64,000 nt of DNA from an uncultured Chryseobacterium sp. (GCA_964500205.1 CAZCNS010000004.1:98260-162259); one strand, 5' to 3'. Positions 10,834 to 54,901 are shown, counted from the first letter of the stretch. Made by a program: numbers and translations. Notes: generated by a model from the sequence alone, not told the origin.

Positions 10834-13800
10834 TTAATTGATCACAATCTTCTTGCTCTCCACTCCCTGCTCCGTCTCCACGCGCACCACGTAGATGCCC
10901 GTGGTCACGTTGGTGGCGATGGCCGTGCGTGTGCCGTTCAATGCAGCGGTCTGCACCACGCGGCCCGTCATGTCCATGATGGTCACCGTGCCGCGCTGCT
11001 CCTCGCTCTGGATGATGTTCACGGTGCGGTCGTAGGCGAAAATGTCCGTAGAGACGCGATTCATCGCGTCTCCGTCCATACCCACCACCTGTGCCGAGAA
11101 ATGCAGCACAAAACGGTTCTCGAACGTTCCGCCCTCACTCGTAAAGGTGTAGCTGGGCTCGTTGTCAAGACTTTGGAACGCTCCCGTGCCCAGGTCTTCC
11201 AGCCATGCGCTCACAGGCAGATCGAGCTCTGATGCGTTGATGGTGTACTCGCCTGCGGCCTGCACCCGGATGCCGAGCGGCACACTGGGCTGCGTCTCTG
11301 GGCTGTTGACCCCGTTGATGGCCATGCGCGTGCCCTCCACAATGCTCCAGAGCTGCGGCACCTCGGCAGGGGCCATCTGCTTCTGCGAGTCGTAGAGGTC
11401 GATGCCATTGCTGGCCAGGTCGTTGAAGTGGAGCATCGCCTCATCGGTTTGCGTCCCGTTGGTCAGCGTGAGGCGGATAAGGTCGATCCCATCGCGCAGG
11501 GTCTCGTCAGCGAGGTGGCTGCGCATGTCGTTGTTCATGGCAAGGATGCCCGTGTTGCCATCCTCGTTCACCCGCACCCAGAAGGCCTGCCCGGGGTGGA
11601 CGAACTCCGTTGCGCCCAGCAGCCCTATGCCGATCACGGCATTGTAGGTCGAGAAGACCATGTTGCCGGTCTGCTGCGTGCGGTACCAGATGGTGGGCAG
11701 CAGGTTGATGCTTCCCGCGCTGTAGGCGTCTCCCCAGTTGAGGAAGCTCGGGTAGGGGTTCCCAATGAGGTGGTAACCGCGCTGGCTGTTGGTGGTGCCG
11801 GTGCGGCTCAGGTCTGTGAGGCTCAGGTTGCCTGTGTTGAAGGTGCCGCCTGTGTATTCCACGGTCTCGGTTGCACCGAGGCGGGCGAGGTATCCGCGCA
11901 TGGGGCTTAGGGCGCTCACATCGTCCGTGATCTCGCCCCAGCCGCTGCCGTTGGGCCCGTTGGCCTCGGCCACCTCATCGTGCCCCCAGATGCGGTTGTC
12001 GCCCGCTGCACCGTAGGCCCCGCTGACAGTGCCGCTCACCGTGGGTGCCACGTACCAGTGGCGGCCATCGGGCGTGCCGCCACCGCTGCCCGTCAGGTAC
12101 TGCTGCGCAATGAAGGTGCCGCTGCCGCCCACCGTGCCGAGGGTTATTACGGTGCCGTTGCCCGTGGCATCGCTCTCCAAGGTCATGCTGCCGTTGTTCG
12201 TTACGTTGCCGCTCACCGTCAGCGCCCTGCCCGGCTCTACCACCACCTCGGCCCCCGCATCCACCGTCAGGTTGCGGCATGTGGCAGGGTTCTCCGGTGT
12301 CAGGTCGATGTGTGGCTGGTTCGCGGGGTCGGCTGTGATCAGCACATCATCATCCGCGCCCGGCACCGCGCCCGATGACCAGTTCCCCGCATTGCTCCAG
12401 AGGTTGCTCTCGCTGCCGTCCCAGCCATCGTAGATCCGTACTGTGTAATCCTCCACCTGCCCGAACCCGGAGTTGCCGCACGGGGTATCGTTCGGCCCGA
12501 AGGTCGGGCTGGTGTCATGCAGCCGCACGCGCATCCGGGTGGTGCCTGTGCTCGCATTGGCAGGTATCGCGATCGTGCCCGTGCGCGTGCCCAAGCCCGT
12601 CTGGTCGAACAGCAGCTCGTTCACCTCGTCAAACTCCCCGTCTCCGTTCAGGTCTATCCATATCAGCGTCTGGTCGCTGGAGTATCCGTTGGATATCGTC
12701 ACCGACACAGGATAGCTCGCACCGCGTGCCACCGTGCCTACCAGCCCGGTGTGATTCTCATACCCCCCGGTGGTCGATGTCGTGTTGTCTATTCCCGCGA
12801 ACTGCACCCTGCCTATCTTCTCATACTCGCTGCTGTTCGCACTGGCCGCGCAGTAGCTCACGCACGGGTCGCTGCCTATCGCCACCGCGCCCAGCGAGTG
12901 CCGCAGCGAGCTACGAGGGCCTCCGTCCACCACCGCGTTCATCCGCACCGACTGGCCCTCCGTGAACATGTGCATGCAGCCGTCCACCGTGTAGTCCATG
13001 TAGTTCATGAACATCTCACCGTTGGCATTGCTCCCGCAGGCGTTGTTCGGTCTTCTCGGGAACGCAGGGCAGCCTCCGTTCGATTCCAACTGAGGGGGCG
13101 TGTCGTCCACCAGGTCGTTGCCGCAGGTGGCATCGCCCCAGATATGCCGCAGGTTCAGCCAGTGGCCCACCTCGTGCGTCATCGTCCGGCCCTTGTTGTA
13201 AACAGGGTTGTCGGGGTGGGGCGTCTCTATCGACCCTGTGGTGTAGTACGCGTTCACCACCCCGTCTGTCAGCGCGTTGCCGCCCGGGAACTGCGCATAG
13301 CCCAGCAGGTCATCGCTGGCGTTGAAGCGCACCGTCCACACGTTCAGGTAGTTGTCCCGGTCCCAGATCGTGGCGGGCTTCAGTGTGCTGTTGATCTGCG
13401 TGCGGGTCCAATCCGCCCGGCCCCCGTTCACCCTCACGATCCCGGTCGTGGGCTGGCAGTCGGGCGTGCGCTGCGCCAGAGCGAACTGTATCCTCGTGTT
13501 CGCGGCCGCTGGGGCGAAGGCCCCCGGTATCAGCCCCACATCCGAGTTCAGCAGCGCGAAGTCAGCGTTCATCTGCGCCAGTTGCGCGTGGATGTACACC
13601 TCGTCCAGGTTCTCGCCCGTGCCCACTGCCTGTCCGTTGTGTACGATGTGGAATACCACCGGTATCACCACCACATCCTCCTCGCCCGACCGCTGCGACA
13701 GGTCATACTGTGCCGTGTACTCCTCCAGGTCGTCCAGCACCCGCTGCATGTCCGGGTTCTGCTGCAGTTGCTCTGCCAGTTCCGTCATCGTGCCGCAGGT

Positions 13801-13872
13801 GCGCTGTGCCCAAGCACCGGTCGTCATCAGCAGCAGCAGGAGGGAGGTAAGGGTCCTTTTCATCCTTGTCAT
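10834..13872 (-). CDS. M43 (pappalysin/ulilysin-like) zinc metalloprotease with GEVED domain and T9SS type-A C-terminal sorting domain
   Basis: Metzincin motif HEVGHWLNLRH. GEVED-like GFGQVEDYTVRIYDG. C-terminal GIYVVRVETEQGVESKKIVIN is typical of Por-secretion CTDs. Start chosen at MTRMKRT with signal peptide (13872); the ORF-table start at 14013 lacks a signal peptide. Confidence 0.8.
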   Translation of the reverse strand: MTRMKRTLTSLLLLLMTTGAWAQRTCGTMTELAEQLQQNPDMQRVLDDLEEYTAQYDLSQRSGEEDVVVIPVVFHIVHNGQAVGTGENLDEVYIHAQLAQMNADFALLNSDVGLIPGAFAPAAANTRIQFALAQRTPDCQPTTGIVRVNGGRADWTRTQINSTLKPATIWDRDNYLNVWTVRFNASDDLLGYAQFPGGNALTDGVVNAYYTTGSIETPHPDNPVYNKGRTMTHEVGHWLNLRHIWGDATCGNDLVDDTPPQLESNGGCPAFPRRPNNACGSNANGEMFMNYMDYTVDGCMHMFTEGQSVRMNAVVDGGPRSSLRHSLGAVAIGSDPCVSYCAASANSSEYEKIGRVQFAGIDNTTSTTGGYENHTGLVGTVARGASYPVSVTISNGYSSDQTLIWIDLNGDGEFDEVNELLFDQTGLGTRTGTIAIPANASTGTTRMRVRLHDTSPTFGPNDTPCGNSGFGQVEDYTVRIYDGWDGSESNLWSNAGNWSSGAVPGADDDVLITADPANQPHIDLTPENPATCRNLTVDAGAEVVVEPGRALTVSGNVTNNGSMTLESDATGNGTVITLGTVGGSGTFIAQQYLTGSGGGTPDGRHWYVAPTVSGTVSGAYGAAGDNRIWGHDEVAEANGPNGSGWGEITDDVSALSPMRGYLARLGATETVEYTGGTFNTGNLSLTDLSRTGTTNSQRGYHLIGNPYPSFLNWGDAYSAGSINLLPTIWYRTQQTGNMVFSTYNAVIGIGLLGATEFVHPGQAFWVRVNEDGNTGILAMNNDMRSHLADETLRDGIDLIRLTLTNGTQTDEAMLHFNDLASNGIDLYDSQKQMAPAEVPQLWSIVEGTRMAINGVNSPETQPSVPLGIRVQAAGEYTINASELDLPVSAWLEDLGTGAFQSLDNEPSYTFTSEGGTFENRFVLHFSAQVVGMDGDAMNRVSTDIFAYDRTVNIIQSEEQRGTVTIMDMTGRVVQTAALNGTRTAIATNVTTGIYVVRVETEQGVESKKIVIN

Positions 13873-13966
13873 GGTTGGTTTGCGGTTGCAAAGTGCGGAA
13901 AATTCCATCACAGCACCACGCCATTCCGACAAACCCCACCAAATCACCTCCCGCCACCCGAACCCG

Positions 13967-14182
13967 TCACTGCGAGCGCAGCGAAGCAGTCTCCCCGTTA
14001 CCCTCCTCCGCAACCATCACCCCCTCCGCGCAGTAGTCGCGCAGCACCTCGTTTAGCAGGTCAGCCGTAAGGTCAGTGCTGCCGGCCAGTATGGTGCGGA
14101 ACACCTCCAAGCGGTCATCCACGCTCAGGGTGTTCAGCCTTTCATCATCGCGGAAGAAGGACATGAAGTCGTCTCGGGTCAT
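13967..14182 (-). CDS. Hypothetical small protein (72 aa from ATG; the longer ORF would need a TTG start)
   Basis: GC-rich ORF abutting the low-GC HNH islet, with acidic composition. No recognisable family. Confidence 0.3.
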   Translation of the reverse strand: MTRDDFMSFFRDDERLNTLSVDDRLEVFRTILAGSTDLTADLLNEVLRDYCAEGVMVAEEGNGETASLRSQ

Positions 14183-22542: not shown

Positions 22543-23862
22543 ATGAGACACATTCTCCTCCTTCCACTGCTGATGATCGGTGCCTTGGCCCCGCAGGTCA
22601 AGGCACAGACCGGACCCCACCGCTGCTACACCACACAGGCCACTGACCTGCGCGAACAGCTCCTTCCTGGCTACCGGGCTGCTGTGGACGAGGCTTTCCG
22701 CTCCGCAAAAAGCCATGCCAAGCAGGGCCATAGGAATGATGAGGTTTACGTGATACCCGTGGTGGTGCATGTGGTGTACAACAACCCCGAGCACAACATA
22801 TCCGATGAGGTGATCCAAAGCCAGATCGATGTGCTGAACGAGGATTTCCGCAGGTGGAACCCCGATGCCGACCAGACCCGTGAGGAGTTCCTGCCCGTGG
22901 CGGCCGATGCGGGCATACAGTTCGTCTTCGCCACTGAGGATCCGGATGGCAACCCCACCACGGGCATCACCCGCACCGAGACCACCCGCACCAGCTGGCT
23001 GGGCTTCCCGGAGTTTCTTCCCAATGACATCAAGCGCACCGCAGAGGGCGGCATCGATGCATGGGACACTGAGCGTTACCTCAACATCTGGGTGGGCGAT
23101 CTGTCACTGGCCGGAGCACCGTTCATCCTCGGATTCGCCTATCCTCCTGCAGATCTCGACAACTGGCCTGCCGATAGCGATGCCCCAGAGCCGGGCCTCG
23201 AGGGCGTGGTGGTGCACAATGCAGTTTTCGGACGGAACAGTCCTCTCTCCTCTGACCTGCTTGCCACCAACGACCGTGGCCGCACCTGCACCCACGAGGT
23301 GGGCCATTTCCTCGGCCTGCGCCACACTTGGGGAGATGGGGGCGGTCTCTTCGGTGGCGGGGAAGGCTGCACCGTGGATGATGGAATGGAGGACACGCCT
23401 AACTGCGCGGACGCCCAACAGCAGGAGTGCGACCCGGCCTCCAACACCTGCGTGGACGAACCCATAGACCTCCCCGACCAGATCGAGAACTATATGGACT
23501 ACAGCGATGAGCGTTGCCAGAACATGTTCACCCGTCAGCAGGCCGACCTCATGCGTGCCGTGTTGGAAACAAGCCGCAGTGGACTCGTCACCGCCATTCC
23601 GGCCAGCGTGCCAGAGACAGCGTCTGACCGGGAGATCACCATTTTCCCCAACCCCACCGATGGACTGGTCACCCTGAACTGGGAGAAGGCCACAGAGATG
23701 AACATCACCGTGAGCGATGCCCTCGGGCGTGAGGTGGCAACGCAGTCCGTTACAGCAGCCGGAAAGGCTGAACTCGACCTCAATGGGTTCCCATCAGGCG
23801 TGTACACGGTTTTGCTGCGTTCATCAGATAGGCAGTGGGCTAAGCGGCTGGTGGTGAGGTGA
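22543..23862 (+). CDS. M43 zinc metalloprotease with T9SS C-terminal sorting domain
   Basis: Signal peptide MRHILLLPLLMIGALAPQVKAQ. Metzincin motif HEVGHFLGLRH. C-terminal ITIFPNPTDGLVTLNW...GVYTVLL CTD. Confidence 0.8.
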   Translation: MRHILLLPLLMIGALAPQVKAQTGPHRCYTTQATDLREQLLPGYRAAVDEAFRSAKSHAKQGHRNDEVYVIPVVVHVVYNNPEHNISDEVIQSQIDVLNEDFRRWNPDADQTREEFLPVAADAGIQFVFATEDPDGNPTTGITRTETTRTSWLGFPEFLPNDIKRTAEGGIDAWDTERYLNIWVGDLSLAGAPFILGFAYPPADLDNWPADSDAPEPGLEGVVVHNAVFGRNSPLSSDLLATNDRGRTCTHEVGHFLGLRHTWGDGGGLFGGGEGCTVDDGMEDTPNCADAQQQECDPASNTCVDEPIDLPDQIENYMDYSDERCQNMFTRQQADLMRAVLETSRSGLVTAIPASVPETASDREITIFPNPTDGLVTLNWEKATEMNITVSDALGREVATQSVTAAGKAELDLNGFPSGVYTVLLRSSDRQWAKRLVVR

Positions 23863-23910
23863 TCCGTTGAGAATAGGTCGCACAGGTCGTTCGCTTCTGA
23901 GCAGAAAAAC

Positions 23911-23946
23911 GGTACAGATGTGGGAATCGACTACCGGATTTGTACT
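23911..23946. promoter_or_regulatory. Imperfect 36-bp palindrome GGTACAGAT-N-ATTTGTAC (operator-like), copy 1
   Basis: Read from the sequence. Shares about 80% identity with copy 2 at 24065-24100. Confidence 0.5.
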
Positions 23947-24064
23947 GACCCTGATGCACTGTTGGCCGATCGTCAGATGTTCCAATTCCGATGGCACACA
24001 AGTTTTATTTGAGTGTTCATAGGATTTATGCCCATTTCTGCAATTGTTGTTGAGACTGAGAACT

Positions 24065-24100
24065 GGTACAGATTAGGGAATCAATTCCCATATTTGTACC
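24065..24100. promoter_or_regulatory. Nested 36-bp palindrome GGTACAGATTAGGGAATCAATTCCCATATTTGTACC, copy 2, ending about 12 bp before the ATPase start
   Basis: The outer arms (GGTACA / TGTACC) and inner arms (GGGAAT / ATTCCC) are both reverse-complementary. It overlaps the predicted promoter/RBS zone of the 24112 gene. Confidence 0.55.
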
Positions 24101-24111
24101 AATTTTAGATC

Positions 24112-25272
24112 ATGTCAGTAAGAATAGACCGAGAGATGCTAGGGTCTCTCAGCAACACCGCAGCGCAGTTCAGGGCAGTGATGGTCGTGGGCCCGAGGCA
24201 ATCTGGAAAGACCACCCTTGTGCGAACCACGTTTGCAGACAAGCCCTATGCATCGCTCGAGAATCCTGATGAGCGGCTGCTGGCCGAGCGCGACCCGCGT
24301 GCATTTCTCGGCCGATTCCCTGACGGGGCCGTTCTGGACGAGGTGCAGCGCGCACCGTCCATTCTCAACTATCTACAAGAGATACTCGACAACACAGAGA
24401 AGGACGGGCTTTTCATCCTTACGGGCAGCAACAATATCCTCTTGCAAGAGAATATCAGCCAGACACTTGCGGGGCGGGTGGGCGTGCTTGACCTTCTGCC
24501 CCTGAGTTTTAAGGAACTGAAACAAGCGGGCATCGACATGGGTCTTGACGAGCTGATTCTGAAAGGTGGCTACCCCGAAGTGCATGGCAAGGGCCGTGAC
24601 CCCAAGGCATGGTATCCTGCCTATGTCAGAACCTATGTGGAGCGGGATGTCCGTCAGGTAAAGAACATCGAGAACACGCTGCTTTTTACCCGCTTTCTCC
24701 GTCTGTGCGCGGGCCGTGTTGGTCAGATGCTCAATGCCTCGGCCCTCAGCAACGAGTGCGGCATTGATGTCAAAACAGTCAACGCGTGGCTGTCGGTGCT
24801 TGAAAGCACTTACGTGATAAAGATGCTCACCCCGTTTCACAGGAATTTCAATAAACGCATCACCAAATCCCCCAAGCTGTATTTCGTTGATACCGGGCTG
24901 GCCTGCTCTCTGCTGGGAATACGGAGCGTCAATGAATTGGCACTTTCGCATTTCCGAGGAGCACTGGCGGAGAATCTTGTCGTGGTCGAGGCATGGAAAA
25001 ACGCTCTGAATGCAGGTCGGCACGATGCATTTCACTACTGGCGCGACAACAAAGGAGTGGAGGTGGACCTGATAGTGGACAGCGGGCAGGATTTCATGCC
25101 TATTGAAATAAAGTCTGCCAAGACCTTCTCGGAGGATTTCCTGAAGAACATCAACAAGTTTCAAGAATATGCCGGTGGTTCAGCAGGTACGTTGCTCTAT
25201 GACGGCACTATGGAGTTCACCACCTCCGACAACGTACGTGTGTGCAACTGGAAAACCTTTCTGATGGATTGA
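24112..25272 (+). CDS. AAA+ ATPase, DUF4143 family (COG1373-like)
   Basis: Walker A VVGPRQSGKTTL and Walker B ILDEVQ. C-terminal DUF4143-like region. Lies in a low-GC segment. Confidence 0.8.
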   Translation: MSVRIDREMLGSLSNTAAQFRAVMVVGPRQSGKTTLVRTTFADKPYASLENPDERLLAERDPRAFLGRFPDGAVLDEVQRAPSILNYLQEILDNTEKDGLFILTGSNNILLQENISQTLAGRVGVLDLLPLSFKELKQAGIDMGLDELILKGGYPEVHGKGRDPKAWYPAYVRTYVERDVRQVKNIENTLLFTRFLRLCAGRVGQMLNASALSNECGIDVKTVNAWLSVLESTYVIKMLTPFHRNFNKRITKSPKLYFVDTGLACSLLGIRSVNELALSHFRGALAENLVVVEAWKNALNAGRHDAFHYWRDNKGVEVDLIVDSGQDFMPIEIKSAKTFSEDFLKNINKFQEYAGGSAGTLLYDGTMEFTTSDNVRVCNWKTFLMD

Positions 25273-25445
25273 GAGGGTGGGGTAATGCTTTTGAACCGCA
25301 ATGACAACGAGTTGCATGAAACCTGACATCACTTAACAGGCAGTACATTCGCCCTGCAACAGCGCCAAAACCAGTGTAAATCTTTCATCGTACTCCTTTC
25401 GTCATATCCGCTCCGCATGTGCGGGGTTCCTAATCCGCAACCCAG

Positions 25446-26984
25446 ATGCTTGTAAAAACCTTCGGAAGCGCAGTGTACGGGGTCGATGCCAACCTCATCA
25501 CCATAGAGACCAACATCACGCTGGGCGGGGTCAACTTCTTCATGGTGGGCCTGCCCGACAACGCGGTGAAGGAGAGCCAGCAGCGCATACAGACCGCGCT
25601 CAAGAACAACGGCCTCAAATGGCCCGGCAAGCACATCGTCATCAACATGGCCCCTGCCGATGTGCGCAAGGAAGGCTCGGCCTACGATCTCACCTTGGCC
25701 GTGGGCATCCTCTCTGCATCGGAGCAGATCCCTGCCGATCAGGTCAGCGATTATATGATTATGGGCGAGTTGGCCCTCGATGGCAGTATGAGGCCCATCA
25801 AGGGTGCGCTTCCTATAGCTATCCTTGCCCGCGAGAAAGGTCTGAAGGGCTTTATCCTGCCCAGTGCCAATGCCCGCGAGGCTGCCATTGTAGATGGCAT
25901 AGAGGTTTATGGCGTAGACAACATCACGCAGGTCATCGACTTCTTCAAGGGCGACAGACCTCTGGAACCCACCGTGGTCAATACCCGTGAGGAGTTTTTC
26001 AAGCATCTCTACCAGAGCGATGTCGATTTCAGCGATGTGAAAGGGCAGGAGAACATCAAGCGGGCAATGGAGATAGCCGCTGCGGGTGGGCACAACATCC
26101 TGCTCATCGGCCCACCAGGCGCGGGCAAGACCATGCTGGCCAAAAGGTTGCCCACTGTGCTGCCACCCCTTTCGCTGCGTGAAGCTTTGGAGACCACCAA
26201 GATCCATTCTGTGGTCGGAAACCTCGGCCGCGAGTCTGCCCTCATCTCGCAGCGGCCGTTCCGCTCACCGCACCACACCATCTCTGACGTGGCCCTGGTG
26301 GGCGGAGGGCAGATCCCGCAACCGGGCGAGATCTCATTGGCACACAACGGGGTGCTTTTTCTCGATGAACTGCCCGAGTTCAGCCGAGGGGTGCTGGAGG
26401 TGATGCGTCAGCCCTTGGAAGACCGTAGGGTCACCATCAGCCGTGCGCGGCTCTCGGTGGAATACCCCAGTAGCTTCATGCTGGTGGCGAGCATGAACCC
26501 GTGCCCCTGCGGCTATTACAACCACCCCGACAAGGACTGCGTGTGCGCCCCGGGCGTGGTGCAGAAATACCTGAACAAGATCAGCGGGCCGCTGCTCGAC
26601 CGCATCGACATGCACGTGGAGGTGACGCCCGTGCCCATCAACGAGCTGGCCGATGCCCACAACAGCGAGAAGAGCGAGGAGGTGCGCAAGCGCGTGATCA
26701 GTGCACGGGAGGCGCAGACCGAGCGGTTCAAGGGCACCGACATCCACTGCAATGCGCAGATGGGCGCCAAGACCCTGCGCGAGGTGTGTGCATTGGACGA
26801 TGCGGGCCGTGCCATGCTCAAGAAGGCCACTGACCGCCTCGGACTCAGTGCCCGTGCCTTCGACCGCATCCTCAAGGTGTCGCGCACCATTGCCGATCTC
26901 GATGGCAGCGACCGCATCCTGCCCAACCACCTCGCAGAGGCGATACAGTACAGGAGCTTGGACAGGGCGAACTGGGCGGGGTGA
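25446..26984 (+). CDS. comM: Mg-chelatase-like ATPase YifB/ComM
   Basis: 512 aa. Lon-like N-domain, Walker A GPPGAGKT, and the typical C-terminal ChlI helix bundle. Confidence 0.9.
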   Translation: MLVKTFGSAVYGVDANLITIETNITLGGVNFFMVGLPDNAVKESQQRIQTALKNNGLKWPGKHIVINMAPADVRKEGSAYDLTLAVGILSASEQIPADQVSDYMIMGELALDGSMRPIKGALPIAILAREKGLKGFILPSANAREAAIVDGIEVYGVDNITQVIDFFKGDRPLEPTVVNTREEFFKHLYQSDVDFSDVKGQENIKRAMEIAAAGGHNILLIGPPGAGKTMLAKRLPTVLPPLSLREALETTKIHSVVGNLGRESALISQRPFRSPHHTISDVALVGGGQIPQPGEISLAHNGVLFLDELPEFSRGVLEVMRQPLEDRRVTISRARLSVEYPSSFMLVASMNPCPCGYYNHPDKDCVCAPGVVQKYLNKISGPLLDRIDMHVEVTPVPINELADAHNSEKSEEVRKRVISAREAQTERFKGTDIHCNAQMGAKTLREVCALDDAGRAMLKKATDRLGLSARAFDRILKVSRTIADLDGSDRILPNHLAEAIQYRSLDRANWAG

Positions 26985-27005
26985 GAAGCCAACAAATGGC
27001 TCAGT

Positions 27006-27431
27006 TCATTTGAACATGTCCTCAAATTCTGCTTTGGTCAGAATATTCAGTCGTTTGAACTTTTCTTCGAGACGGGCTTTCTCCTGAAGAATGTGTCTGT
27101 CCCCACTTGTTATAAAGCCGCTGTTGGTCTGGAGGGCAAGGGCGACCACATAATCATCGTCCCTATCGGCAGGGATATACCTTTTGATGGGCGGCTTGAG
27201 TGCGAACGGGATGGTGTTGTCTCGGATGAAGCGCAGTGCATAGCTCCTATTCACACCGTACTTCTCAAGGTGCGGATAAGCGAGCACCCTGCGAATTTCG
27301 GTCAGCAGTTCCTCACAGCAGAAAATTGCAATTCGATGTTCGGCAATGATCTGCAACAGGGTCTCTTCCTGCCTTCCGATGAGGTAACTAACCCATACGT
27401 TTGCATCCAACACGAACCTGTCCTTACGCAT
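27006..27431 (-). CDS. PIN-domain toxin (TIGR00305-like toxin-antitoxin PIN family)
   Basis: About 141 aa from the internal ATG MRKDRFVLDANVWVSYL. Acidic PIN residues are present. Its start overlaps the upstream small gene. Confidence 0.65.
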   Translation of the reverse strand: MRKDRFVLDANVWVSYLIGRQEETLLQIIAEHRIAIFCCEELLTEIRRVLAYPHLEKYGVNRSYALRFIRDNTIPFALKPPIKRYIPADRDDDYVVALALQTNSGFITSGDRHILQEKARLEEKFKRLNILTKAEFEDMFK

Positions 27432-27642
27432 CCGCTTGGCGCGACAGGTGTTTGATACGGTCAATCTCTTCCAATGAAGGCGCGCTCAGACCTTTGGGCA
27501 TAGCTGTTCTGTCAGGGATGCCATCACTCAGGAGCTTCCTCGCACGGAGGCTTATAAGCAGGGCCTGCTGCTGCTCATTGCTCATGGCTTTCAGTTCAAC
27601 CATCAGCTCCTTGAGCATCATATCAGTATCAGAGGTGGGCAT
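27424..27642 (-). CDS. Putative antitoxin partner of the PIN toxin
   Basis: 72 aa small helical protein whose 3' end overlaps the PIN gene start, as is typical for TA operons. No family assigned. Confidence 0.45.
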   Translation of the reverse strand: MPTSDTDMMLKELMVELKAMSNEQQQALLISLRARKLLSDGIPDRTAMPKGLSAPSLEEIDRIKHLSRQADA

Positions 27643-27832
27643 ATCCAGTCAGTTGTCAAGCAAAATTACACAGATTCGTTCTTCAACATCAGACACTGCT
27701 GTCCAGGGCAGGCGAACTGGGTGGGGTGATGTGTACGGAGCACAATTCATAGATGTGGATCACGCGTGCATAATTTGCAACATTCATTTTTCATATATAA
27801 CAGTAAATCAGATGTTAATGTTATTTCAATCC

Positions 27833-27872
27833 CCGTAAATCATCAGTTTAACTGACGATTTACGGGGTTGAA
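27833..27872. promoter_or_regulatory. 36-40-bp palindrome CCCCGTAAATCATCAGTT|AACTGACGATTTACGGGG immediately upstream of the second DUF4143 ATPase gene
   Basis: The arms are reverse-complementary with one mismatch. The element sits at the 5' end of the 27868 ORF, before the alternative start at 27919. Confidence 0.5.
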
Positions 27873-29076
27873 TTTTTCTATCTTTGCGGCCGTCATGGCA
27901 CTAACGAGGATATTTGATATGCGGCTGTTGAAGCTGCTCCGGACCTTCCCGGCTGTGGGCCTGATAGGTCCGAGGCAGGCAGGCAAGACCACGGCTGCCA
28001 AACTGGTGCAGCGTCAACTGAAAAAGCCGGCCATCTATCTCGACCTCGAAAGTCCGTCTGATTTCCGCAGATTCTCCGACCCCGAGCTGTTCCTCACAGA
28101 GCTGGAGGACACCTGCGTCATCATTGACGAGGTGCAGCGGATGCCCGAGCTTTTCCCACTGCTGCGCTCACTGATAGACCGCAACCGTAAGCCCGGACGG
28201 TTCCTGCTGCTGGGTTCGGCCTCGCCTGAGCTGGTAGCGGGCGTGAGCGAGTCGCTGGCGGGGCGTATCAGCTATCTGGAGGCGCATCCCTTCCATATCC
28301 TCGAACTTCCCGACCGTCCGACAACGCAGCGGAAACACTGGTTCCGTGGCGGATTCCCCGATGCGTGGAAGGCCCGCAGCGATGATGCTCGTTTCGAGTG
28401 GACGGACAACTTCGTGCGGACGTTCGTGGAGCGCGACCTCAACATGCTCTTCGGTACATCATTCTCCCCTCAGGTGATGTTCCGCCTCTGGCGAATGTTG
28501 GCACATCACCATGGAGGGGCGTGGAACGCGCAGTCCATCGCCAAGGCACTTGACATGAGCCCGACCACGGTGAACCGCTACGTGGATTTCCTCGAAGGGG
28601 CGTTCATGCTGCGCAGGCTCGCGCCCTACCACGCCAACACCCGCAAACGCCTGAGCAAGACACCGAAGGTCTATGTGCGTGACAGCGGGCTGCTGCACTA
28701 CCTGCTCGACATCAACCGGGCGGCCGATCTGCTCTCGCACCCATCGGTGGGGCATTCGTGGGAAGGGCATGTCATCGAGCAGATCATCGCCCTGCTGCCA
28801 AGGACAATACAACCGTTCTACTACCGCACCCATGACGGGGCGGAAATGGACCTGGTGCTGGTGAAAGGGGTCGCCCCGATAGCCTCCATCGAGGTGAAGC
28901 TGACGCTCTCGCCCACCGTGACGCGCGGGATGCGGGAAAGCATCAAAGACCTGGGCACAGCGCAGAACTTCATCATCACCCCGCAGGATTCGCCTTCCTA
29001 CCCCATCGCTGACGATATCCGTGTATTGGGGCTGCGGGAGTTCGTCACCACGCTGCTCCCGAAGTTGGTGAAATGA
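27868..29076 (+). CDS. AAA+ ATPase, DUF4143 family (second copy; diverged paralogue)
   Basis: Walker A LIGPRQAGKTT and Walker B IIDEVQ. The alternative start MRLLKLL at 27919 lies downstream of the palindrome. Confidence 0.8.
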   Translation: MNFSIFAAVMALTRIFDMRLLKLLRTFPAVGLIGPRQAGKTTAAKLVQRQLKKPAIYLDLESPSDFRRFSDPELFLTELEDTCVIIDEVQRMPELFPLLRSLIDRNRKPGRFLLLGSASPELVAGVSESLAGRISYLEAHPFHILELPDRPTTQRKHWFRGGFPDAWKARSDDARFEWTDNFVRTFVERDLNMLFGTSFSPQVMFRLWRMLAHHHGGAWNAQSIAKALDMSPTTVNRYVDFLEGAFMLRRLAPYHANTRKRLSKTPKVYVRDSGLLHYLLDINRAADLLSHPSVGHSWEGHVIEQIIALLPRTIQPFYYRTHDGAEMDLVLVKGVAPIASIEVKLTLSPTVTRGMRESIKDLGTAQNFIITPQDSPSYPIADDIRVLGLREFVTTLLPKLVK

Positions 29077-29245
29077 TACCGCTGAACAACTTGAAGAGCA
29101 ATCCACAGCGACCGCATCCTGCCAACCACCTCGCGGAGGCGATTCAATATCGGAGTTTGGACAGGGCGAACCGGGCGGGGTGAAAAACAAACCCCGACAC
29201 CGCCTCAAGGACAGGGTCGGGGAAAGTTCTGAATTTTGGCAGCTA

Positions 29246-29587
29246 TCAGGCTGCCTGAAGAGATTGACGGAAGTCCTTCTTGTACGCCCTCCCGATCGGA
29301 ATGCTGAACCTCATGTCGCGCTCCATCATCTCGATATTGTTCCCTCGAACGAAACCTATCTTGTCCAGATTCACGATGAACGACCGGTGCGAACGTGCGA
29401 AACGCTCGGCAGGAAGTTTCTCCTCCAGTTCCTTCATGGTGCAGAGGGTGATGTGTTTGCCAGAGGTGGTCTTGACGATCACATAGTCCGCCAAAGCCTT
29501 GATAAAAAGGATGTCATCGAATGCTACGGACACTGACTCATAGTTTGCACGGATCACGATGCGTTCGCGTTTCATGTCGGTTCTCAT
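29246..29587 (-). CDS. LytTR-family DNA-binding domain protein (stand-alone)
   Basis: 113 aa. The ...DDILFIKALADYVIVKTTSGKHITLCTMKELEEKLPAERFARSHRSFIVNLDKI pattern is a canonical LytTR domain. Confidence 0.8.
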   Translation of the reverse strand: MRTDMKRERIVIRANYESVSVAFDDILFIKALADYVIVKTTSGKHITLCTMKELEEKLPAERFARSHRSFIVNLDKIGFVRGNNIEMMERDMRFSIPIGRAYKKDFRQSLQAA

Positions 29588-29742
29588 GGCATTGGGGCTT
29601 GAGGTTAATTACTGTGAGTGTTTACCCGCTGATGCCGCTGCCGTTCAGAAATTTAGACGAACGACCGCTTTTCTCCGTTGGATATGACCATGGCTTTCGA
29701 TGACCAAGAGCTGCTGATGATGCCCAAAGCGGTTTCATACCT

Positions 29743-31797: not shown

Positions 31798-31809
31798 TGG
31801 AGGGCGCGA

Positions 31810-32658: not shown

Positions 32659-32689
32659 AAATAGGCTGAACGAAGGCTATCTTCGCCCC

Positions 32690-32839: not shown

Positions 32840-32869
32840 AGGCCCGTTGCCGGCCCGTACCTTTGCCGC

Positions 32870-51592: not shown

Positions 51593-51605
51593 TACTTCAC
51601 ATACA

Positions 51606-54600
51606 TTATTCCTCCTCCACTTCCTCAACCCCCTCAAAAAGCTTCGCATCGCGTTGCCGTTCCTGCTCAAATTCCACCTCGAACGATGAACCGTCCTGCC
51701 GTTCCTGTAGGCGCGGCTGCGCGGCATTGATGGCGTCCAGCTTCTTCTGCGCATCCTCCTTGAGCACACCGAGGTAGTTGTCCACCACGTTCTGCAATGT
51801 GAGCTTGGCCTGGAAGAGGTCGCCCTGCTTCTCGTAGCTGTCGGCCAGCAGGATGAACGCCTTGGCTATCCACACCTTGTAGTTGGGGAAGATGTTGACC
51901 ATCTCGAACACCATGCGCTCGGTCTCCTCATAGTTGCCGCTGAGGAACTGGATGCGCGCGAGGTTGTACATGGCCTCGGCCCCCATCTCGCTGTTGCTGC
52001 GCAGCAGGGTCTCCTGAAAACGGGCCTCGGCCATCCGCAGGTCGTTCTGCGCCAGCGCGCACTTGGCGGATATGAGGTGGGCCTCGCTCACCAGTTCCTG
52101 CGGGGCGCGGTCGGCACGGATCACCTTCTGGGCATACTCCTCGGCCTGCCCGAAACTGTTGAGTGCAAAGTGGCTGCGCATCAGTCCCGCGCGGGCCTCC
52201 AGCAGGTTGTCCGCCCGCTCGGCCAGCTCCTCCAGCATGGTGAAGCGCAGCATGGCCTCCTGGTGCCGCTGCTGTGCGGTGTAGATGCGCCCAGCGGCCA
52301 GCAGCGACCGCTCGGTGAAGCCGTTCTTGGCGAAACTCAGCACCTTGTCGTAGCCGCGCAGGGCATCGTCATACATCCTGAGCTGGTTGGCGGCCTCGGC
52401 CTGATAGAAGTGCGCGTTGAGGGCGAAATACCCGTTGGGGAAGCGGTCGAGGTAGCCGCCCAGCTCCTTGATGGCGTTGCTGAGGTCGCCCCTTACGTAG
52501 CGCAGCTCCGCAGCCTGATAGTAGGAGGTGTCGAGCGCGCCCTTGGTGATGTCCGGGAAGTCCTTGGAGGCCATGTAAGTTTCAAACCCAGCCACATCGG
52601 TGTTCTCGATGTATATCTTCTGAATCTTCATCAGCGCCTCCTTGGCCTCGGGCGTGGCGGGGTGGTTCTCGGCCACATCCTTGAAGACGGGCAGGGCGCG
52701 GTCGTCATCGCTCTGGTTGTAGAAGATGAGGCCACGGTTGAGCTTCGCCCTGCGCATGTAGCTGCTGTTGGGGTGCTCGGCAATGATGCGGTCGAACCAA
52801 GCGAGGGCATCGGTGGTGTTGTCCATGAAGAAATAGGTCTCGCCTATCTCGTATTTCGCGTCAGCGGCAAATCCCGTCCTGGGGTAGTTGTCGAGCATGG
52901 CCTTGAGCGTCTCGACCTTGCTGGCCGACTTGCCCTGAATGCCGTAGCACACGGCTATCTGGAAGATGGCGTAGTCGGCATCGGGCCGCTGCATCCGCAG
53001 GGCGCGGTCGTAGAATTCGATGGCGAGGCCAGGGTTGCGCTGCAGATAGTAGCAGTCGCCTGTGCGCATGTGGGCATCGCTGATGCGGGCGCTGTCCTGC
53101 CCCGTCAGCTCGGTGAACCTGCGGAACCACGATGCGGCCTCGGTGTAGTTCTCCTGGTCGAAATAGAGGTAGCCCATGCCGTAGTGCGCCATGCCGTACT
53201 CAGGCAGGCGGATGGCCCCTGGCGACTCGATGAAACTCGTGTAGTACTCCTGCGCGGCCTTCGGCTTTTTCATGCGGGCATACGCCTCAGCCTTCCAGAA
53301 ACGGCCCTGCGCAAGGGTGTGCTGGTCGATGGGATATTTCTCGGCAAGGTGGAAGAAATGCACCGCCCGCTCGAACTTGAGGTCGTGCATCAGCTCGGTG
53401 CCACGGGTGTAGGCCACGCGCTGATAGGTGCGCTGCAATTCGGGGTCCTTCTTCTTGATGCGCTCGATGGCATCGATGGCGGCCTCGTAGTTGCGGGTCA
53501 CCAAGTAGATTTGGAGCAGGAAGCTGTACGATTCGTCAATCCGCTCGCTCTCTGGGTGGCTGGCGATGTACTCGCTGAACGCCTGCACGGCCTCGTTATA
53601 GGGGTCGAAGCTGAGTTTGTAGGCCAGCTTCGCGAAGTTGAACAACGCGTCCTCCTGCAGTTTCTCATTGAACGAGAGGCGCGATGCGGAACGGAAGGCG
53701 TTACGGGCCTGCATCTTCTGCCCGTCCTTGAGGTGGCAGTCGCCCATGTGGTAGTACGACAGTTGGGCCATGGCGTCCTGCTCACGCACTACCTGACTGA
53801 AATAGTTGACGGCCTTGGTGCAGTCGCCCGCGCGGTAGCTGGCATAGCCGAGCTTGTAGCGGTCATCGCGGTTGCCGCCCAGTTCGGCCACGGCCTGTTC
53901 GAGGTGCGGCACGGCCTTGGCGTAGCGTTCGAGGCTGTAGTTGGCCTCACCGAGAATGCGATGCACCTCGCCCGTCTTGCCCTTGGCGAAGTCCTTCTTC
54001 AAAAGGGCCTCTCCGTAAGTAATGACCTCCTCGTTGTTCTGCTGGCGGTAGAGTATCTGCAGGATGTAGAACGGCACGGTGCTGCCGAACAGCGCATCGT
54101 CCTCCAACTCGCGGAAACCCTTGAGGGCCATCTCGTTGTTGCCTTTCCGATAAAGGATGTAGGAATTGTAATAGATGGCGGGCGAGCGGTATTTCTTGCC
54201 GCCTTTCATCACGTGGGCCAGCGCGTCCTGCGCCTCGGGGTACTGCTCCTGCTGGAAATGCGCGTAGCCTTTCTTGAAGTAGAATTCCTCCAGATAGGAG
54301 TCGTCCAGCTCGTGGGGGTCCACCTTGGCGAACGCATCCGTCACAGCTTTGAACTTTTTCCTGTGGAAATGGCTGCGTCCGAGATGGAAATGCGCGTCCA
54401 CCGACTTGGGATGCTCTGGGTGCGAGGCCACGAAGCCTTCCATCATCGGCTCACCATCGGGGTTGAAGAGTTCCAGCGCATCGAGGGCGGAGTAGAACCC
54501 GCTGTTCTCCACGATGATGGAGGGCAGTTCGTCCCTGCGCTGCAAGGCACGGTCGAAGTGGTGCTGCGCCACGGAGTATTTCTGTTTCTGCTGATGCTCC

Positions 54601-54716
54601 AAGGCCACGTTGTACTCCCGCATCGGGCCGTAGTCGTTGGCCACGCGCTGGGCGAGGGCATCTGAGACGGTAATGATTGCGACCGCAAATGCCAGCACAG
54701 CAGTGCGGGAAAGCAT
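51606..54716 (-). CDS. Tetratricopeptide-repeat protein (about 1036 aa), secreted/lipoprotein-like
   Basis: Signal peptide MLSRTAVLAFAVAIITVSDALAQ, followed by TPR-like helical repeats throughout and an acidic C-terminus. Confidence 0.75.
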   Translation of the reverse strand: MLSRTAVLAFAVAIITVSDALAQRVANDYGPMREYNVALEHQQKQKYSVAQHHFDRALQRRDELPSIIVENSGFYSALDALELFNPDGEPMMEGFVASHPEHPKSVDAHFHLGRSHFHRKKFKAVTDAFAKVDPHELDDSYLEEFYFKKGYAHFQQEQYPEAQDALAHVMKGGKKYRSPAIYYNSYILYRKGNNEMALKGFRELEDDALFGSTVPFYILQILYRQQNNEEVITYGEALLKKDFAKGKTGEVHRILGEANYSLERYAKAVPHLEQAVAELGGNRDDRYKLGYASYRAGDCTKAVNYFSQVVREQDAMAQLSYYHMGDCHLKDGQKMQARNAFRSASRLSFNEKLQEDALFNFAKLAYKLSFDPYNEAVQAFSEYIASHPESERIDESYSFLLQIYLVTRNYEAAIDAIERIKKKDPELQRTYQRVAYTRGTELMHDLKFERAVHFFHLAEKYPIDQHTLAQGRFWKAEAYARMKKPKAAQEYYTSFIESPGAIRLPEYGMAHYGMGYLYFDQENYTEAASWFRRFTELTGQDSARISDAHMRTGDCYYLQRNPGLAIEFYDRALRMQRPDADYAIFQIAVCYGIQGKSASKVETLKAMLDNYPRTGFAADAKYEIGETYFFMDNTTDALAWFDRIIAEHPNSSYMRRAKLNRGLIFYNQSDDDRALPVFKDVAENHPATPEAKEALMKIQKIYIENTDVAGFETYMASKDFPDITKGALDTSYYQAAELRYVRGDLSNAIKELGGYLDRFPNGYFALNAHFYQAEAANQLRMYDDALRGYDKVLSFAKNGFTERSLLAAGRIYTAQQRHQEAMLRFTMLEELAERADNLLEARAGLMRSHFALNSFGQAEEYAQKVIRADRAPQELVSEAHLISAKCALAQNDLRMAEARFQETLLRSNSEMGAEAMYNLARIQFLSGNYEETERMVFEMVNIFPNYKVWIAKAFILLADSYEKQGDLFQAKLTLQNVVDNYLGVLKEDAQKKLDAINAAQPRLQERQDGSSFEVEFEQERQRDAKLFEGVEEVEEE

Positions 54717-54901
54717 CGTGGAGTCGGGCTTTATGTGGCGCGTCATGTCTCGGCTAAAGTAGCGGGATGCCATTCGTGGCATTTTTCGCCACTGGCGTAC
54801 TTATGAACGCGGAAGTGTTGAAATTATTGGCAACATGACATATCGAAGTCAAGGCGCATCCGTCTGCCAGAATGAGAAGCAAGCCGTCTGAAAATCGAGG
54901 C

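What the first reader, a model, noticed from the sequence alone, without database searches (positions are those of the whole stretch)
26907..29183. comM 3' end is an integration hotspot: tandem integrase-less islets bounded by three copies of an att-like core that preserves the ComM C-terminus
The last ~78 bp of comM (26907-26984) recur at 29107-29183 (~88% identity). The 22-25 bp core CAGGGCGAACYGGGYGGGGTGA also recurs at ~27692-27721. The substitutions in the distal copy are almost all synonymous with respect to the ComM frame (…NHLAEAIQYRSLDRAN(W/R)AG*), so that copy evolved as coding sequence. That is the signature of integrative elements that insert into a gene's 3' end and bring a replacement end with them. 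The two intervals carry a PIN toxin/antitoxin pair and a DUF4143 AAA ATPase but no recombinase. Either a trans-acting integrase exists elsewhere or the elements have decayed. comM is a known island target in other phyla, but this repeat-delimited tandem arrangement is not explained by any annotated feature.
Basis: partly seen in the sequence, partly recalled or inferred. Interest (0 to 1): 0.75.

Follow-up and report, generated by a model that had tools for sequence, protein, structure and literature searches.

The report
Gene-cassette stack behind comM
Behind the comM gene of an uncultured freshwater Bacteroidota bacterium sit two small self-contained gene cassettes (a toxin-antitoxin pair and a candidate anti-phage ATPase), each followed by a left-over copy of comM's last codons; related genomes carry none, other or reordered cassettes, so this gene end is a real, recombinase-less insertion hotspot.

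Summary
The last 80 nt of comM (26905-26984) recur at 29105-29183, and its last 19 nt recur at 27711-27729. The motif occurs nowhere else in the 64 kb except as a partial copy at 25275.

Comparative data show a hotspot:
- Empty sites: comM followed directly by mgtE (L001, L002).
- Toxin-antitoxin (TA) only: L187.
- orf167 plus TA: L162.
- TA plus DUF4143: window, L165, L189.
- DUF4143 plus TA, the reverse order: L188.

Each cassette is compact, has its own promoter, and ends in a displaced comM tail. The 5' boundary of that tail is cassette-specific (-80, -75, -67, -19) and conserved across genomes. Displaced and functional tails differ mostly at synonymous sites. The TA cassette is less diverged than comM (dS about 0.27 against 0.73), so it moved horizontally.

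No recombinase gene was found in the ORFs of 120 aa or more that I scanned in the window, or in any array. I favour a recombinase-independent mechanism: one-sided homologous recombination creates each cassette, and recombination through comM and the tail copies spreads it. A trans-acting site-specific recombinase is not excluded. Decay of classical integrase-bearing islands is unlikely. I rate this a new variant of a known kind, of moderate interest.

The parts
24112..25272 (+). DUF4143_A: a second AAA_14/DUF4143 ATPase (PADLOC candidate PDC-S01), inserted between the M43 peptidase gene and comM
   Evidence: Pfam DUF4143 E 5e-49 and AAA_14 E 7e-27. PADLOC PDC-S01 E 3e-101. Absent in L001, where M43 and comM are 50 bp apart. 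31% identical to DUF4143_B.
25275..25285 (+). Partial fourth copy of the tail motif (GGGTGGGGTAA), 2 nt after the DUF4143_A stop; unexplained
   Evidence: (repeat D16). 20/28 nt match 27719-27746. No homologous upstream region in relatives.
25446..26984 (+). comM (Mg-chelatase-like AAA+ competence helicase gene), intact
   Evidence: 94% amino-acid identity to L001.
26905..26984 (+). Functional comM tail (last 26 codons plus stop); the proximal repeat copy
26985..27710 (.). TA type-1 cassette (726 bp, GC 0.50), self-contained
   Evidence: About 90% identical to L162 and L189, with the same two ends. GC.
27006..27431 (-). PIN_3-family toxin gene (141 aa)
   Evidence: Pfam PIN_3 E 9e-13. Exact product found on L081. 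Homologues.
27424..27642 (-). 72-aa antitoxin gene; its stop overlaps the PIN start (ATGCGTAA)
   Evidence: No Pfam hit. Always paired with the PIN gene in L162, L164, L165 and L187-L189.
27661..27668 (-). Bacteroidota -7 promoter-like box TAATTTTG for the TA operon, inside the cassette
   Evidence: Read from the sequence. The motif assignment rests on established knowledge of Bacteroidetes promoters (TAnnTTTG).
27711..27729 (+). 19-nt displaced comM tail remnant (GGCGAACTGGGTGGGGTGA) that closes the TA cassette
   Evidence: The same junction GCA|GGCGAAC is present in L162 and L189.
27730..27830 (.). AT-rich spacer (GC about 0.36), the left part of the DUF4143 cassette
   Evidence: Homologous to L187 1298-1397 and to L189. 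GC.
27831..27867 (.). 18-bp-stem palindromic hairpin (core TCAGTTTAACTGA) followed by a T-run; conserved upstream of DUF4143_B-clade genes
   Evidence: repeat I8; dG -18.1 kcal/mol, z -6.2. Related hairpins in L166, L167, L169, L187, L188 and L189.
27879..27886 (+). Promoter-like box TATCTTTG, 9 nt upstream of the DUF4143_B start
   Evidence: The same layout (hairpin, T-run, TAnnTTTG, ATG) is present in L166, L167 and L169.
27895..29076 (+). DUF4143_B: AAA_14 plus wHTH plus DUF4143 (PD-(D/E)XK-like) ATPase, PADLOC candidate PDC-S01
   Evidence: Pfam. PADLOC E 1e-86. 89-91% nt identity to L188 and L189. No solved relative.
29077..29104 (.). 28-nt right end of the DUF4143 cassette (...CTTGAAGAGCAATCC)
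   Evidence: Junction conserved in L165, L188 and L189.
29105..29183 (+). Displaced comM tail (79 nt; 1-nt deletion after 29120, TGG to CGG at 29172); the distal repeat copy
   Evidence: 78/80 identical (L165 version) to the functional tail of L189.
29184..29587 (-). Flank shared with L188 and L189, including a LytTR-domain gene (29246..29587)

Best explanation
The comM 3' end of this Bacteroidota clade carries a stack of small, self-contained cassettes. Each cassette is made of cargo, its own promoter and a displaced copy of the comM tail. I propose that it is built and shuffled without a dedicated recombinase.

1. Founding event (inferred). Foreign DNA recombines homologously inside the highly conserved comM. 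Its far end joins illegitimately inside the recipient's comM tail. This is homology-facilitated illegitimate recombination. The donor tail becomes the functional end of comM, and the recipient's own last 19-80 nt are pushed downstream. Only events that keep comM intact survive.
2. Spread (inferred). Once formed, a cassette or a whole stack moves between genomes by recombination, with comM as the left arm and the displaced tail (the invariant last 19-25 nt) as the right arm. New arrivals land next to comM. Deletion removes cassettes.
3. Retention (inferred). TA addiction and candidate anti-phage function favour keeping the cargo.

Shown: the repeats, the empty and alternative occupancy states, cassette-specific conserved junctions, mostly synonymous differences between tails, a lower dS for the TA cassette, and the absence of recombinase genes.
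Inferred: the recombination pathway itself.
For: 1. Occupancy states.
- Empty, comM-mgtE: L001 and L002.
- TA2 plus a DUF4143-cassette remnant: L187.
- orf167 plus TA1: L162 and L163.
- TA1 plus DUF4143: window, L165, L189.
- DUF4143 plus TA2: L188.

2. Junctions. The 5' boundaries of the displaced tails differ between cassette types but are conserved across genomes for a given type: -80 for DUF4143, -75 for TA2, -67 for orf167, -19 for TA1, and -57 in the distant L127.

3. Tail alleles. Functional and displaced tails differ by 41 synonymous against 17 non-synonymous changes over seven pairs. In the window (L165 version) the count is 6 against 0. The window's displaced tail is 78/80 identical to L189's functional tail. 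It therefore looks like a recently functional recipient allele, while the cassette contents are about 10% diverged from L189's.

4. Horizontal movement. Between the window and L162, dS is 0.34 (PIN) and 0.16 (antitoxin) against 0.73 (comM). The right flanks differ.

5. No recombinase. Pfam scans of 41 of the window's ORFs of 120 aa or more found no integrase, resolvase or transposase domain; a few large ORFs were not scanned. None appears in the gene tables of L162/163, L165 or L187-L189.

6. Cargo-less or odd partial comM duplications: L106 (190 aa, directly downstream), L087 and L055.

7. Control. Extra tail-only copies occur at comM in 4 of about 160 loci, against about 2 of about 850 other genes of 250 aa or more.

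8. The same signature occurs away from comM. On phage contig L180 a DUF4143 gene lies behind a tail-protein gene, with a 32-nt duplicate of that gene's end and 2 differences, both synonymous.

9. Homology-facilitated illegitimate recombination is an established pathway (PMC6382021, PMC8116780).
Against: - A 19-nt right arm (TA1) is at or below the length usually needed for RecA-dependent exchange.
- In the window the displaced tail is entirely of the recipient type. The exchange therefore fell in the first 30 nt or fewer of the tail copy, as a site-specific crossover at the boundary would predict.
- Natural transformation is poorly documented in Bacteroidota (own knowledge).
- Why comM is favoured is not explained. 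The control is small and comM sits in the centre of every locus.
- Sliding identity shows no recombination tract in comM.
- Only 64 kb of this genome were available, so an unlinked recombinase cannot be excluded.
- All comparators are metagenomic contigs.
Confidence: 0.4

Rival explanations
1. The cassettes are substrates of an unlinked, trans-acting site-specific recombinase, in the manner of integron cassettes, Xer-dependent dif modules or CIME/IME accretion. The comM tail acts as attB, and each displaced tail as a hybrid att site. Cassettes excise as circles and re-integrate at any tail copy.
For: - Tandem arrays in which each unit ends in a tail copy, with cassette order differing between genomes.
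- TA1 has identical ends in two different right-flank contexts and shows evidence of horizontal transfer.
- The 19-25-nt block is invariant across the clade.
- The window's displaced tail is wholly of the recipient type, as expected for a crossover at the 5' edge of the identity block.
- Accretion arrays of this kind are known (PMC5704250).
Against: - Five different boundary positions would need several recombinases or crossover points.
- I saw no inverted-repeat or dyad architecture around the core by eye, and the repeat finder reported none among its longest pairs in the region. This was not a dedicated search.
- The long comM-like stretch upstream of the invariant block has no role in this model.
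- No recombinase gene lies in or near any array.
- The core sequence is absent from IMG/VR.
Confidence: 0.25
2. The islets are decayed remnants of classical integrase-bearing islands or prophages that integrated into the comM 3' end (CIMEs in the strict sense).
For: [quoted passage not shown]
- The DUF4143_B cassette lacks the downstream hairpin twin seen in L166, L167 and L169, which suggests a deletion next to its stop codon.
- L187 keeps only the spacer and hairpin of that cassette.
Against: - Five cassette types are each reduced to one gene or operon, with only 20-100 nt of flanks and no integrase pseudogene.
- They are conserved in that compact form across lineages and transferred in that form.
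- No intact integrase-bearing element was seen between comM-tail repeats in about 160 comM loci. The genes immediately downstream of comM were not screened for integrases.
Confidence: 0.1
3. Homing-like spread. A nuclease, for example the PD-(D/E)XK-like DUF4143 protein or an unlinked enzyme, cuts cassette-free comM tails. Repair from a cassette-bearing template copies in the cassette together with a synonymously recoded, cleavage-immune tail.
For: - The tails differ mainly at synonymous sites.
- DUF4143 genes recur with flanking repeats: palindromic twins in L166, L167 and L169; a 32-nt duplicate of the end of a phage gene in L180; a 134-nt direct repeat in L176.
- DUF4143 is classed in the PD-(D/E)XK superfamily (PMC3424549).
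Against: - TA and orf167 cassettes show the same architecture without a DUF4143 gene.
- There is no evidence of DNA cleavage activity or of a target site.
- Ordinary homing does not leave a displaced tail.
- 8 of 14 DUF4143 loci examined have no flanking repeat.
Confidence: 0.07

Closest known systems
CIME / tandem accretion of integrative elements at the 3' end of a gene (ICESt1/ICESt3 at fda in Streptococcus thermophilus; reviewed in PMC5704250)
   Same: Recombinase-less units lie in tandem at the 3' end of a protein-coding gene. They are separated by copies of the target end, and the gene is kept intact.
   Different: No related intact ICE or IME was found. Units are single genes of 0.6-1.4 kb. 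Repeat boundaries differ between units. Nothing shows integrase-mediated mobilisation in cis.
Integron cassette arrays
   Same: An ordered stack of compact single-gene cassettes, each ending in a recombination-prone repeat. Newest cassettes appear to sit next to the entry point. TA cassettes are common cargo in integrons (own knowledge).
   Different: No IntI, attI or attC hairpins. The repeats are coding tails of a host gene. The cassettes carry their own promoters.
Defence hotspots between core genes with no identifiable mobilisation (E. coli hotspot #37, PMC10121019; P. aeruginosa cDHS, PMC10250203)
   Same: A variable set of defence or TA genes sits at a fixed core-gene position. Many occupants lack any mobile-element hallmark.
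   Different: Here each insertion left a displaced gene-tail copy, which records the junctions and the order of events. I did not find such a signature described in the passages of PMC10121019 that I read; PMC10250203 was seen only as an abstract.
Homology-facilitated illegitimate recombination in transformable bacteria (PMC6382021, PMC8116780)
   Same: One homologous anchor plus an illegitimate or short-homology joint inserts foreign DNA. This predicts a donor-type gene end, foreign cargo and the retained recipient sequence.
   Different: Not demonstrated in this clade. The repeated use of one gene end and the later shuffling of cassettes go beyond the described laboratory events.
AbaR/Tn7-like islands in Acinetobacter comM (PMC11441513, PMC11014353) and serine-recombinase proviruses in comM (L175)
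   Same: The same target gene.
   Different: Those elements interrupt comM within the coding region and carry their own transposition or recombination genes. Here comM stays intact and no such genes are present.

Membership tests
Site-specific integrative island at a gene 3' end (tyrosine or serine recombinase type) | Recombinase gene inside the element | tested here: not met
   No Phage_integrase, Resolvase or transposase domain in the two intervals, in the 41 window ORFs scanned, or in the arrays of L162/163, L165 and L187-L189.
Site-specific integrative island at a gene 3' end (tyrosine or serine recombinase type) | Direct repeats derived from the target end; target gene reconstituted; empty site in relatives | tested here: met
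Site-specific integrative island at a gene 3' end (tyrosine or serine recombinase type) | One fixed crossover position or identity block shared by elements using the site | tested here: not met
   Boundaries at -80, -75, -67, -57 and -19, depending on the cassette.
CIME (cis-mobilizable element; PMC5704250) | Retains attL and attR but has lost integration and transfer genes | tested here: met
   The repeats flank each unit, and no mobility genes are present.
CIME (cis-mobilizable element; PMC5704250) | Derives by deletion from a recognisable ICE or IME; mobilised in cis by an incoming element | tested here: inconclusive
   No related intact element was recognised in about 190 fetched loci. Mobilisation cannot be tested in silico.
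Integron | IntI gene with attI and Pc next to the array; attC imperfect palindromes closing each cassette | tested here: not met
   No integrase. The repeats are comM coding tails; the distal-tail region folds only modestly better than shuffles (z -2.2, 4 of 200 shuffles as good) and no palindromic hairpin was evident. The cassettes have their own promoter boxes.
IMEX / dif modules (Xer-dependent) | About 28-bp dif-like site with inverted XerC and XerD arms at the module borders | tested here: not met
   I saw no dyad symmetry in or around GGCGAACTGGGCGGGGTGA by eye. This was not a formal search.
Tn7-like AbaR-type island in comM | tns genes; insertion interrupts comM | tested here: not met
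   comM is intact at 512 aa, and no transposition genes are present.
Type II toxin-antitoxin (PIN/VapC-like) | PIN-domain toxin with a small upstream, overlapping partner gene | tested here: met
   PIN_3 E 9e-13. An 8-nt overlap with the 72-aa ORF. The pair is conserved in 7 loci. Toxicity and neutralisation were not tested.
PADLOC candidate defence system PDC-S01 | Match to the PDC-S01 profile | tested here: met
   E 1e-86 (DUF4143_B) and 3e-101 (DUF4143_A). Anti-phage activity cannot be tested here.
Homology-facilitated illegitimate recombination product | Donor-type sequence on the anchor side, a foreign insert, and recipient sequence resuming at an illegitimate joint | tested here: inconclusive
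   The pattern of tail alleles fits. No recombination tract is visible in comM. Microhomology at the founding joints cannot be reconstructed.

The most novel reading that the evidence does not exclude
Displaced comM tails work as the recombination sites of an integron-like cassette system that has no linked integrase. It would be served either by an unlinked host recombinase or by the cargo nucleases themselves, with PDC-S01/DUF4143 acting as a homing-type enzyme. Small defence and TA cassettes would then be actively exchanged among Bacteroidota and their phages through the conserved ends of core genes.
Probability: 0.12. Interest if true: 0.85.

Novelty: new variant of a known kind. Interest (0 to 1): 0.55.

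Why it matters
How defence and TA genes reach 'hotspots' that contain no mobile-element genes is an open question. In E. coli hotspot #37, 68% of occupants have no detectable mobile element, and some P. aeruginosa hotspot occupants have no identifiable mode of mobilisation (PMC10121019).

At this locus every insertion left a displaced copy of the gene tail. These copies record the position of each joint, the order of arrivals and the donor and recipient alleles. The mechanism therefore becomes testable:
- by searching for the same signature (a displaced 3' tail) across pan-genomes;
- by checking for circular junctions;
- by testing RecA dependence.

The locus also ties the uncharacterised DUF4143/PDC-S01 ATPases to small, mobile, repeat-flanked cassettes in both bacteria and phages.

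Tried and rejected
- **REP-like repeat family.** Rejected. The core occurs only at this locus in the window and is simply the comM C-terminal coding sequence in relatives.
- **Assembly artefact.** Rejected. The same arrangement is present in two independent assemblies.
- **Integrase elsewhere in the window.** None found in four Pfam scans covering 41 ORFs of 120 aa or more. A few large ORFs, such as 10834..14013 and 51606..54782, were not scanned.
- **Phage attP carrying the comM tail.** No exact match to the 25-nt core in IMG/VR. The only viral comM hit is a mid-gene serine-recombinase insertion.
- **Structured RNA.** No Rfam match in 23500-30000 at E <= 0.1.
- **In-situ target-site duplication followed by drift.** Disfavoured by the excess of synonymous differences and by the allele match to L189. 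It cannot be fully excluded if comM alleles were later replaced.
- **Mosaic structure of comM as a trace of recombination.** No signal.
- **TA homologue at another locus (L164).** Similarity is confined to the coding region and there are no comM-like flanks, so it is uninformative.
- **P0030 (DUF4143 homologue seen on many contigs).** It sits in the same context in all of them, so it is not evidence of mobility.
- **Downstream hairpin twin as a general feature of DUF4143 genes.** Not found in four Cytophagales plasmid loci or in most IMG/VR loci.
- **Exact-sequence look-ups of ComM and DUF4143_B.** They found nothing.
- **Literature searches.** None turned up a paper on comM-tail integration in Bacteroidota, though the returned papers were not read for this.

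Full report
**1. What is in the window**

comM is the ORF 25446..26984 (+), with ChlI, Mg_chelatase and Mg_chelatase_C domains.
- Its last 80 nt (26905-26984) recur as 79 nt at 29105-29183, with 7 substitutions and one 1-nt deletion.
- Its last 19 nt recur at 27711-27729 with one mismatch.
- Chance expectation for the 19-mer at up to 3 mismatches is 0.01 per window.
- The shorter motif GGGYGGGGTRA occurs four times in 64 kb. All four are in this locus and on the + strand. The fourth lies at 25275-25285, just after an upstream DUF4143 gene.

The first interval, 26985-27710, holds a PIN_3 toxin gene (27006..27431, -) and an overlapping 72-aa antitoxin gene (27424..27642, -), with a TAATTTTG promoter-like box.

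The second interval, 27730-29104, holds in order:
- an AT-rich spacer;
- an 18-bp-stem palindromic hairpin (27831-27867; dG -18 kcal/mol, z -6.2);
- a TATCTTTG box;
- an AAA_14/DUF4143 ATPase gene (27895..29076, +).

Both DUF4143 proteins of the window match the PADLOC candidate defence family PDC-S01, at E 1e-86 and 3e-101. DUF4143 is classed in the PD-(D/E)XK superfamily (PMC3424549).

Pfam scans of 41 of the window's ORFs of 120 aa or more found no recombinase or transposase domain. A few large ORFs were not scanned. The region downstream of 29183 looks like ordinary chromosome (ccm genes, ABC/FtsX transporters, a LolA-like gene, an S41 peptidase).

The arrangement is not an assembly artefact. 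A Logan contig (L081) is 100% identical over 26856-33058, and an ENA contig (L165) is 99.5% identical over 26846-29448.

**2. The displaced tail evolved as coding sequence**

Six of the seven substitutions between the two long copies are synonymous. In strain L165 the distal copy has neither the 1-nt deletion nor the W-to-R change. The ancestral displaced copy therefore differed from the functional tail by six substitutions, all synonymous. The window strain then began to decay it.

The same bias holds across seven pairs of functional and displaced tails in six genomes: 41 synonymous against 17 non-synonymous differences. The window's displaced tail (L165 version) is 78/80 identical to the functional comM tail of L189, but only 74/80 identical to its own functional tail. 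The two copies are thus different comM alleles, not an in-situ duplication that drifted.

**3. Comparative evidence for a hotspot**

I fetched about 160 comM loci from GTDB genomes and JGI metagenomes. Further contexts came from homologues of the PIN toxin and of DUF4143_B.

| State (in comM orientation) | Loci |
|---|---|
| Empty: comM, then about 170 nt, then mgtE | L001, L002 |
| comM, TA type 2, 76-nt tail, spacer and hairpin only, then the native intergenic region resuming at +57, mgtE | L187 |
| comM, orf167, 74-nt tail, TA type 1, 19-nt remnant, native flank, mgtE | L162, L163 |
| comM, TA type 1, 19-nt remnant, DUF4143 cassette, 80-nt tail, LytTR flank | window, L165, L189 |
| comM, DUF4143 cassette, 79-nt tail, TA type 2, 71-nt tail, LytTR flank | L188 |

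In L162 the native flank aligns with L002 from 18 nt before its stop codon. The same two cassette kinds therefore occur in opposite orders in different genomes. TA type 1 and type 2 are only about 71% identical at the nucleotide level, while the flanking comM and DUF4143 sequences are 88-90% identical.

In a distant lineage (L127, activated sludge, ComM 70% identical) a different TA pair lies between comM and a 57-nt displaced tail. The pair is a Gp49/HigB-like toxin with an HTH_3 antitoxin. The tails differ at 3 synonymous sites and 1 non-synonymous site.

No array contains a recombinase gene.

**4. Cassettes are discrete units**

For a given cassette type, the junction between cargo and displaced tail is the same in every genome:

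| Cassette | Junction | Boundary |
|---|---|---|
| DUF4143 | ...CTTGAAGAGCAATCC\|ACAGCGACC | -80 |
| TA type 2 | ...ACGTCTGTSTGCATG\|ACCGCATCC | -75 |
| orf167 | ...\|TGCCCAACC | about -67 |
| TA type 1 | ...GCA\|GGCGAAC | -19 |

Each cassette is compact (0.56-1.4 kb), has its own promoter-like box and has only 20-100 nt of non-coding flank.

Between the window and L162 the TA type-1 cassette has dS 0.34 (PIN) and 0.16 (antitoxin). Pooled, this is 32 synonymous differences over 140 sites, against dS 0.73 for the adjacent comM (169 over 363 sites). The difference is about 4.9 standard errors by my own arithmetic on those counts. The right flanks are unrelated, and L002, the closest relative of L162, is empty. 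The cassette has therefore moved horizontally in its compact form and landed at the same position.

**5. Is comM special?**

In a control over 1013 genes of 250 aa or more in the same loci, extra copies of the last 80 nt were found for 18 genes.
- Most were tandem paralogues.
- Tail-only copies occurred at comM in 4 of about 160 loci: L055, L087, L106 and L127.
- Tail-only copies occurred at about 2 of about 850 other genes.

The sample is small, and comM sits in the centre of every locus. I read this as suggestive enrichment only.

Some of these cases carry no cargo. In L106 a 190-aa comM C-terminal fragment sits 67 nt after the intact gene. In L087 a 237-aa fragment lies just upstream of comM. 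In L055 a 151-aa fragment lies 9 kb downstream with no integrase in between.

**6. Mechanism**

Three models explain the repeats.

*(a) Recombinase-independent (favoured, about 0.4).* A founding homology-facilitated illegitimate recombination uses comM as the anchor and places the illegitimate joint inside the recipient's tail. This gives exactly the observed product: a donor-type functional tail, then cargo, then the recipient's tail starting at an arbitrary position. Later spread uses comM and the tail copy, or its invariant last 19-25 nt, as the arms. The model accounts for:
- the variable but heritable boundaries;
- the lack of recombinases;
- the cargo-less duplications;
- the allele pattern;
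- en-bloc arrival of the two-cassette stack in the window lineage. Its displaced tail is 'fresh' (no non-synonymous change in L165), while the cassette contents are about 10% diverged from L189's.

Its weak points are the very short right arm of TA type 1, the poor documentation of natural transformation in this phylum, and the unexplained preference for comM.

*(b) A trans-acting site-specific recombinase (about 0.25).* This fits the tandem layout and the precise re-use of the TA type-1 ends. It also fits the fact that the exchange in the window fell within the first 30 nt or fewer of the tail copy. It needs several crossover points, no dyad symmetry is apparent around the core by eye, and no candidate enzyme was found.

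*(c) Decay of classical islands into CIMEs (about 0.1).* This would require five independent reductions to single genes, with no integrase remnants, followed by transfer in the reduced form.

*(d) A homing-like model* driven by a cargo nuclease is speculative (about 0.07).

**7. Comparison with what is known**

- **CIME and accretion arrays** at gene 3' ends are the closest named concept (PMC5704250). The defining derivation from an ICE or IME could not be shown.
- **Integrons, dif modules and Tn7-like AbaR islands** fail their defining features (see the membership table).
- **Defence hotspots.** The cargo and the 'no mobility genes' situation match hotspots with unknown mobilisation in E. coli and P. 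aeruginosa (PMC10121019; PMC10250203). What is different here is the trail of displaced tails.
- **Other comM insertions.** The ones I can document interrupt the gene.

**8. Side observations on DUF4143 genes**

Genes of the DUF4143_B clade (64-72% identical) carry a related palindromic hairpin about 25 nt upstream of the start, with core TCAGTTnAACTGA. It is followed by a T-run and a TAnnTTTG box.
- In L166, L167 and L169 a 94-98% identical twin lies 2-10 nt after the stop.
- The window, L188 and L189 have only the upstream copy, and L187 has a solo hairpin.
- More distant plasmid homologues have an upstream palindrome but no twin. The upstream element is therefore probably an operator or insulator. 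The twins remain unexplained.
- On phage contig L180 a DUF4143 gene sits behind a tail-protein gene, with a 32-nt duplicate of that gene's end and two differences, both synonymous.
- In L176 a 134-nt direct repeat flanks the gene.

**9. Verdict**

I rate it a new variant of a known kind, interest 0.55. The limits are that only 64 kb of the genome were available, that all comparators are metagenomic contigs, and that no mechanism was tested directly.

Noticed in passing
window 24112-25285: A second DUF4143/PDC-S01 ATPase gene lies between the M43 peptidase gene and comM. It is absent in L001, where the two genes are 50 bp apart. It is followed 2 nt after its stop by GGGTGGGGTAA, which resembles the comM tail end and the start of the DUF4143_B cassette (20/28 nt). 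No flanking repeat was found and the origin is unexplained.
   Followed up: partly
window 27831-27867; L166 5934-5980 and 7184-7230; L167 5940-5977 and 7192-7229; L169 2944-2978 and 4188-4221; L187 (reverse complement) 1398-1437: A conserved palindromic hairpin (core TCAGTTnAACTGA) lies upstream of DUF4143_B-clade genes. In three unrelated contexts a near-identical twin lies right after the stop. L187 has a solo hairpin without the gene. It could be an operator or terminator, or the ends of a mobile unit.
   Followed up: partly
L180 2838-2869 and 4332-4363 (IMG/VR phage contig): A DUF4143 gene is inserted behind a phage tail-protein gene. There is a 32-nt duplicate of that gene's last 8 codons, its stop and the next gene's start. 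The 2 differences are both synonymous. This is the same signature as at comM.
   Followed up: partly
L176 2784-2917 and 4151-4284: A DUF4143 gene is flanked by a 134-nt direct repeat (92.5% identical) that seems non-coding. No Rfam match at gathering threshold anywhere in the locus.
   Followed up: partly
L175 2187-4647 (IMG/VR contig): A large serine recombinase gene abuts a comM fragment that starts at about residue 281. This is a provirus inserted inside comM, not at its tail.
   Followed up: partly
L106 6352-6930; L087 9215-9934; L055 20383-20838: Partial comM C-terminal duplications of 151-237 aa lie next to or near intact comM, without an integrase. L087 shows further local duplications and may be an assembly problem.
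   Followed up: partly
window ~26846-26856: Two independent assemblies of this organism (L081, L165) both end within comM, 50-60 nt upstream of the tail repeat. L165 has 3 SNPs in the adjacent 60 nt. This may indicate strain-level variation at the comM 3' end.
   Followed up: no
window 29743-31797: A 684-aa protein has a weak, sub-threshold match (25.1 bits against a 32.3-bit cut-off) to an N-terminal CarboxypepD_reg-like domain. Most of its length is charged 29-aa (87-nt) tandem repeats. It is conserved with the LytTR gene in L081.
   Followed up: no
L166 3494-7182: Downstream of recG in another Bacteroidia MAG sits a cluster with similar content: a PIN_3 TA pair, SHOCT, LytTR and a DUF4143 gene. 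The same small genes travel together elsewhere.
   Followed up: no
window 14475-15257 and 50498-54782: An HNH_2 endonuclease gene, and an FRG-domain protein gene next to a 1058-aa ORF that I did not annotate. These may be further defence-type genes.
   Followed up: no
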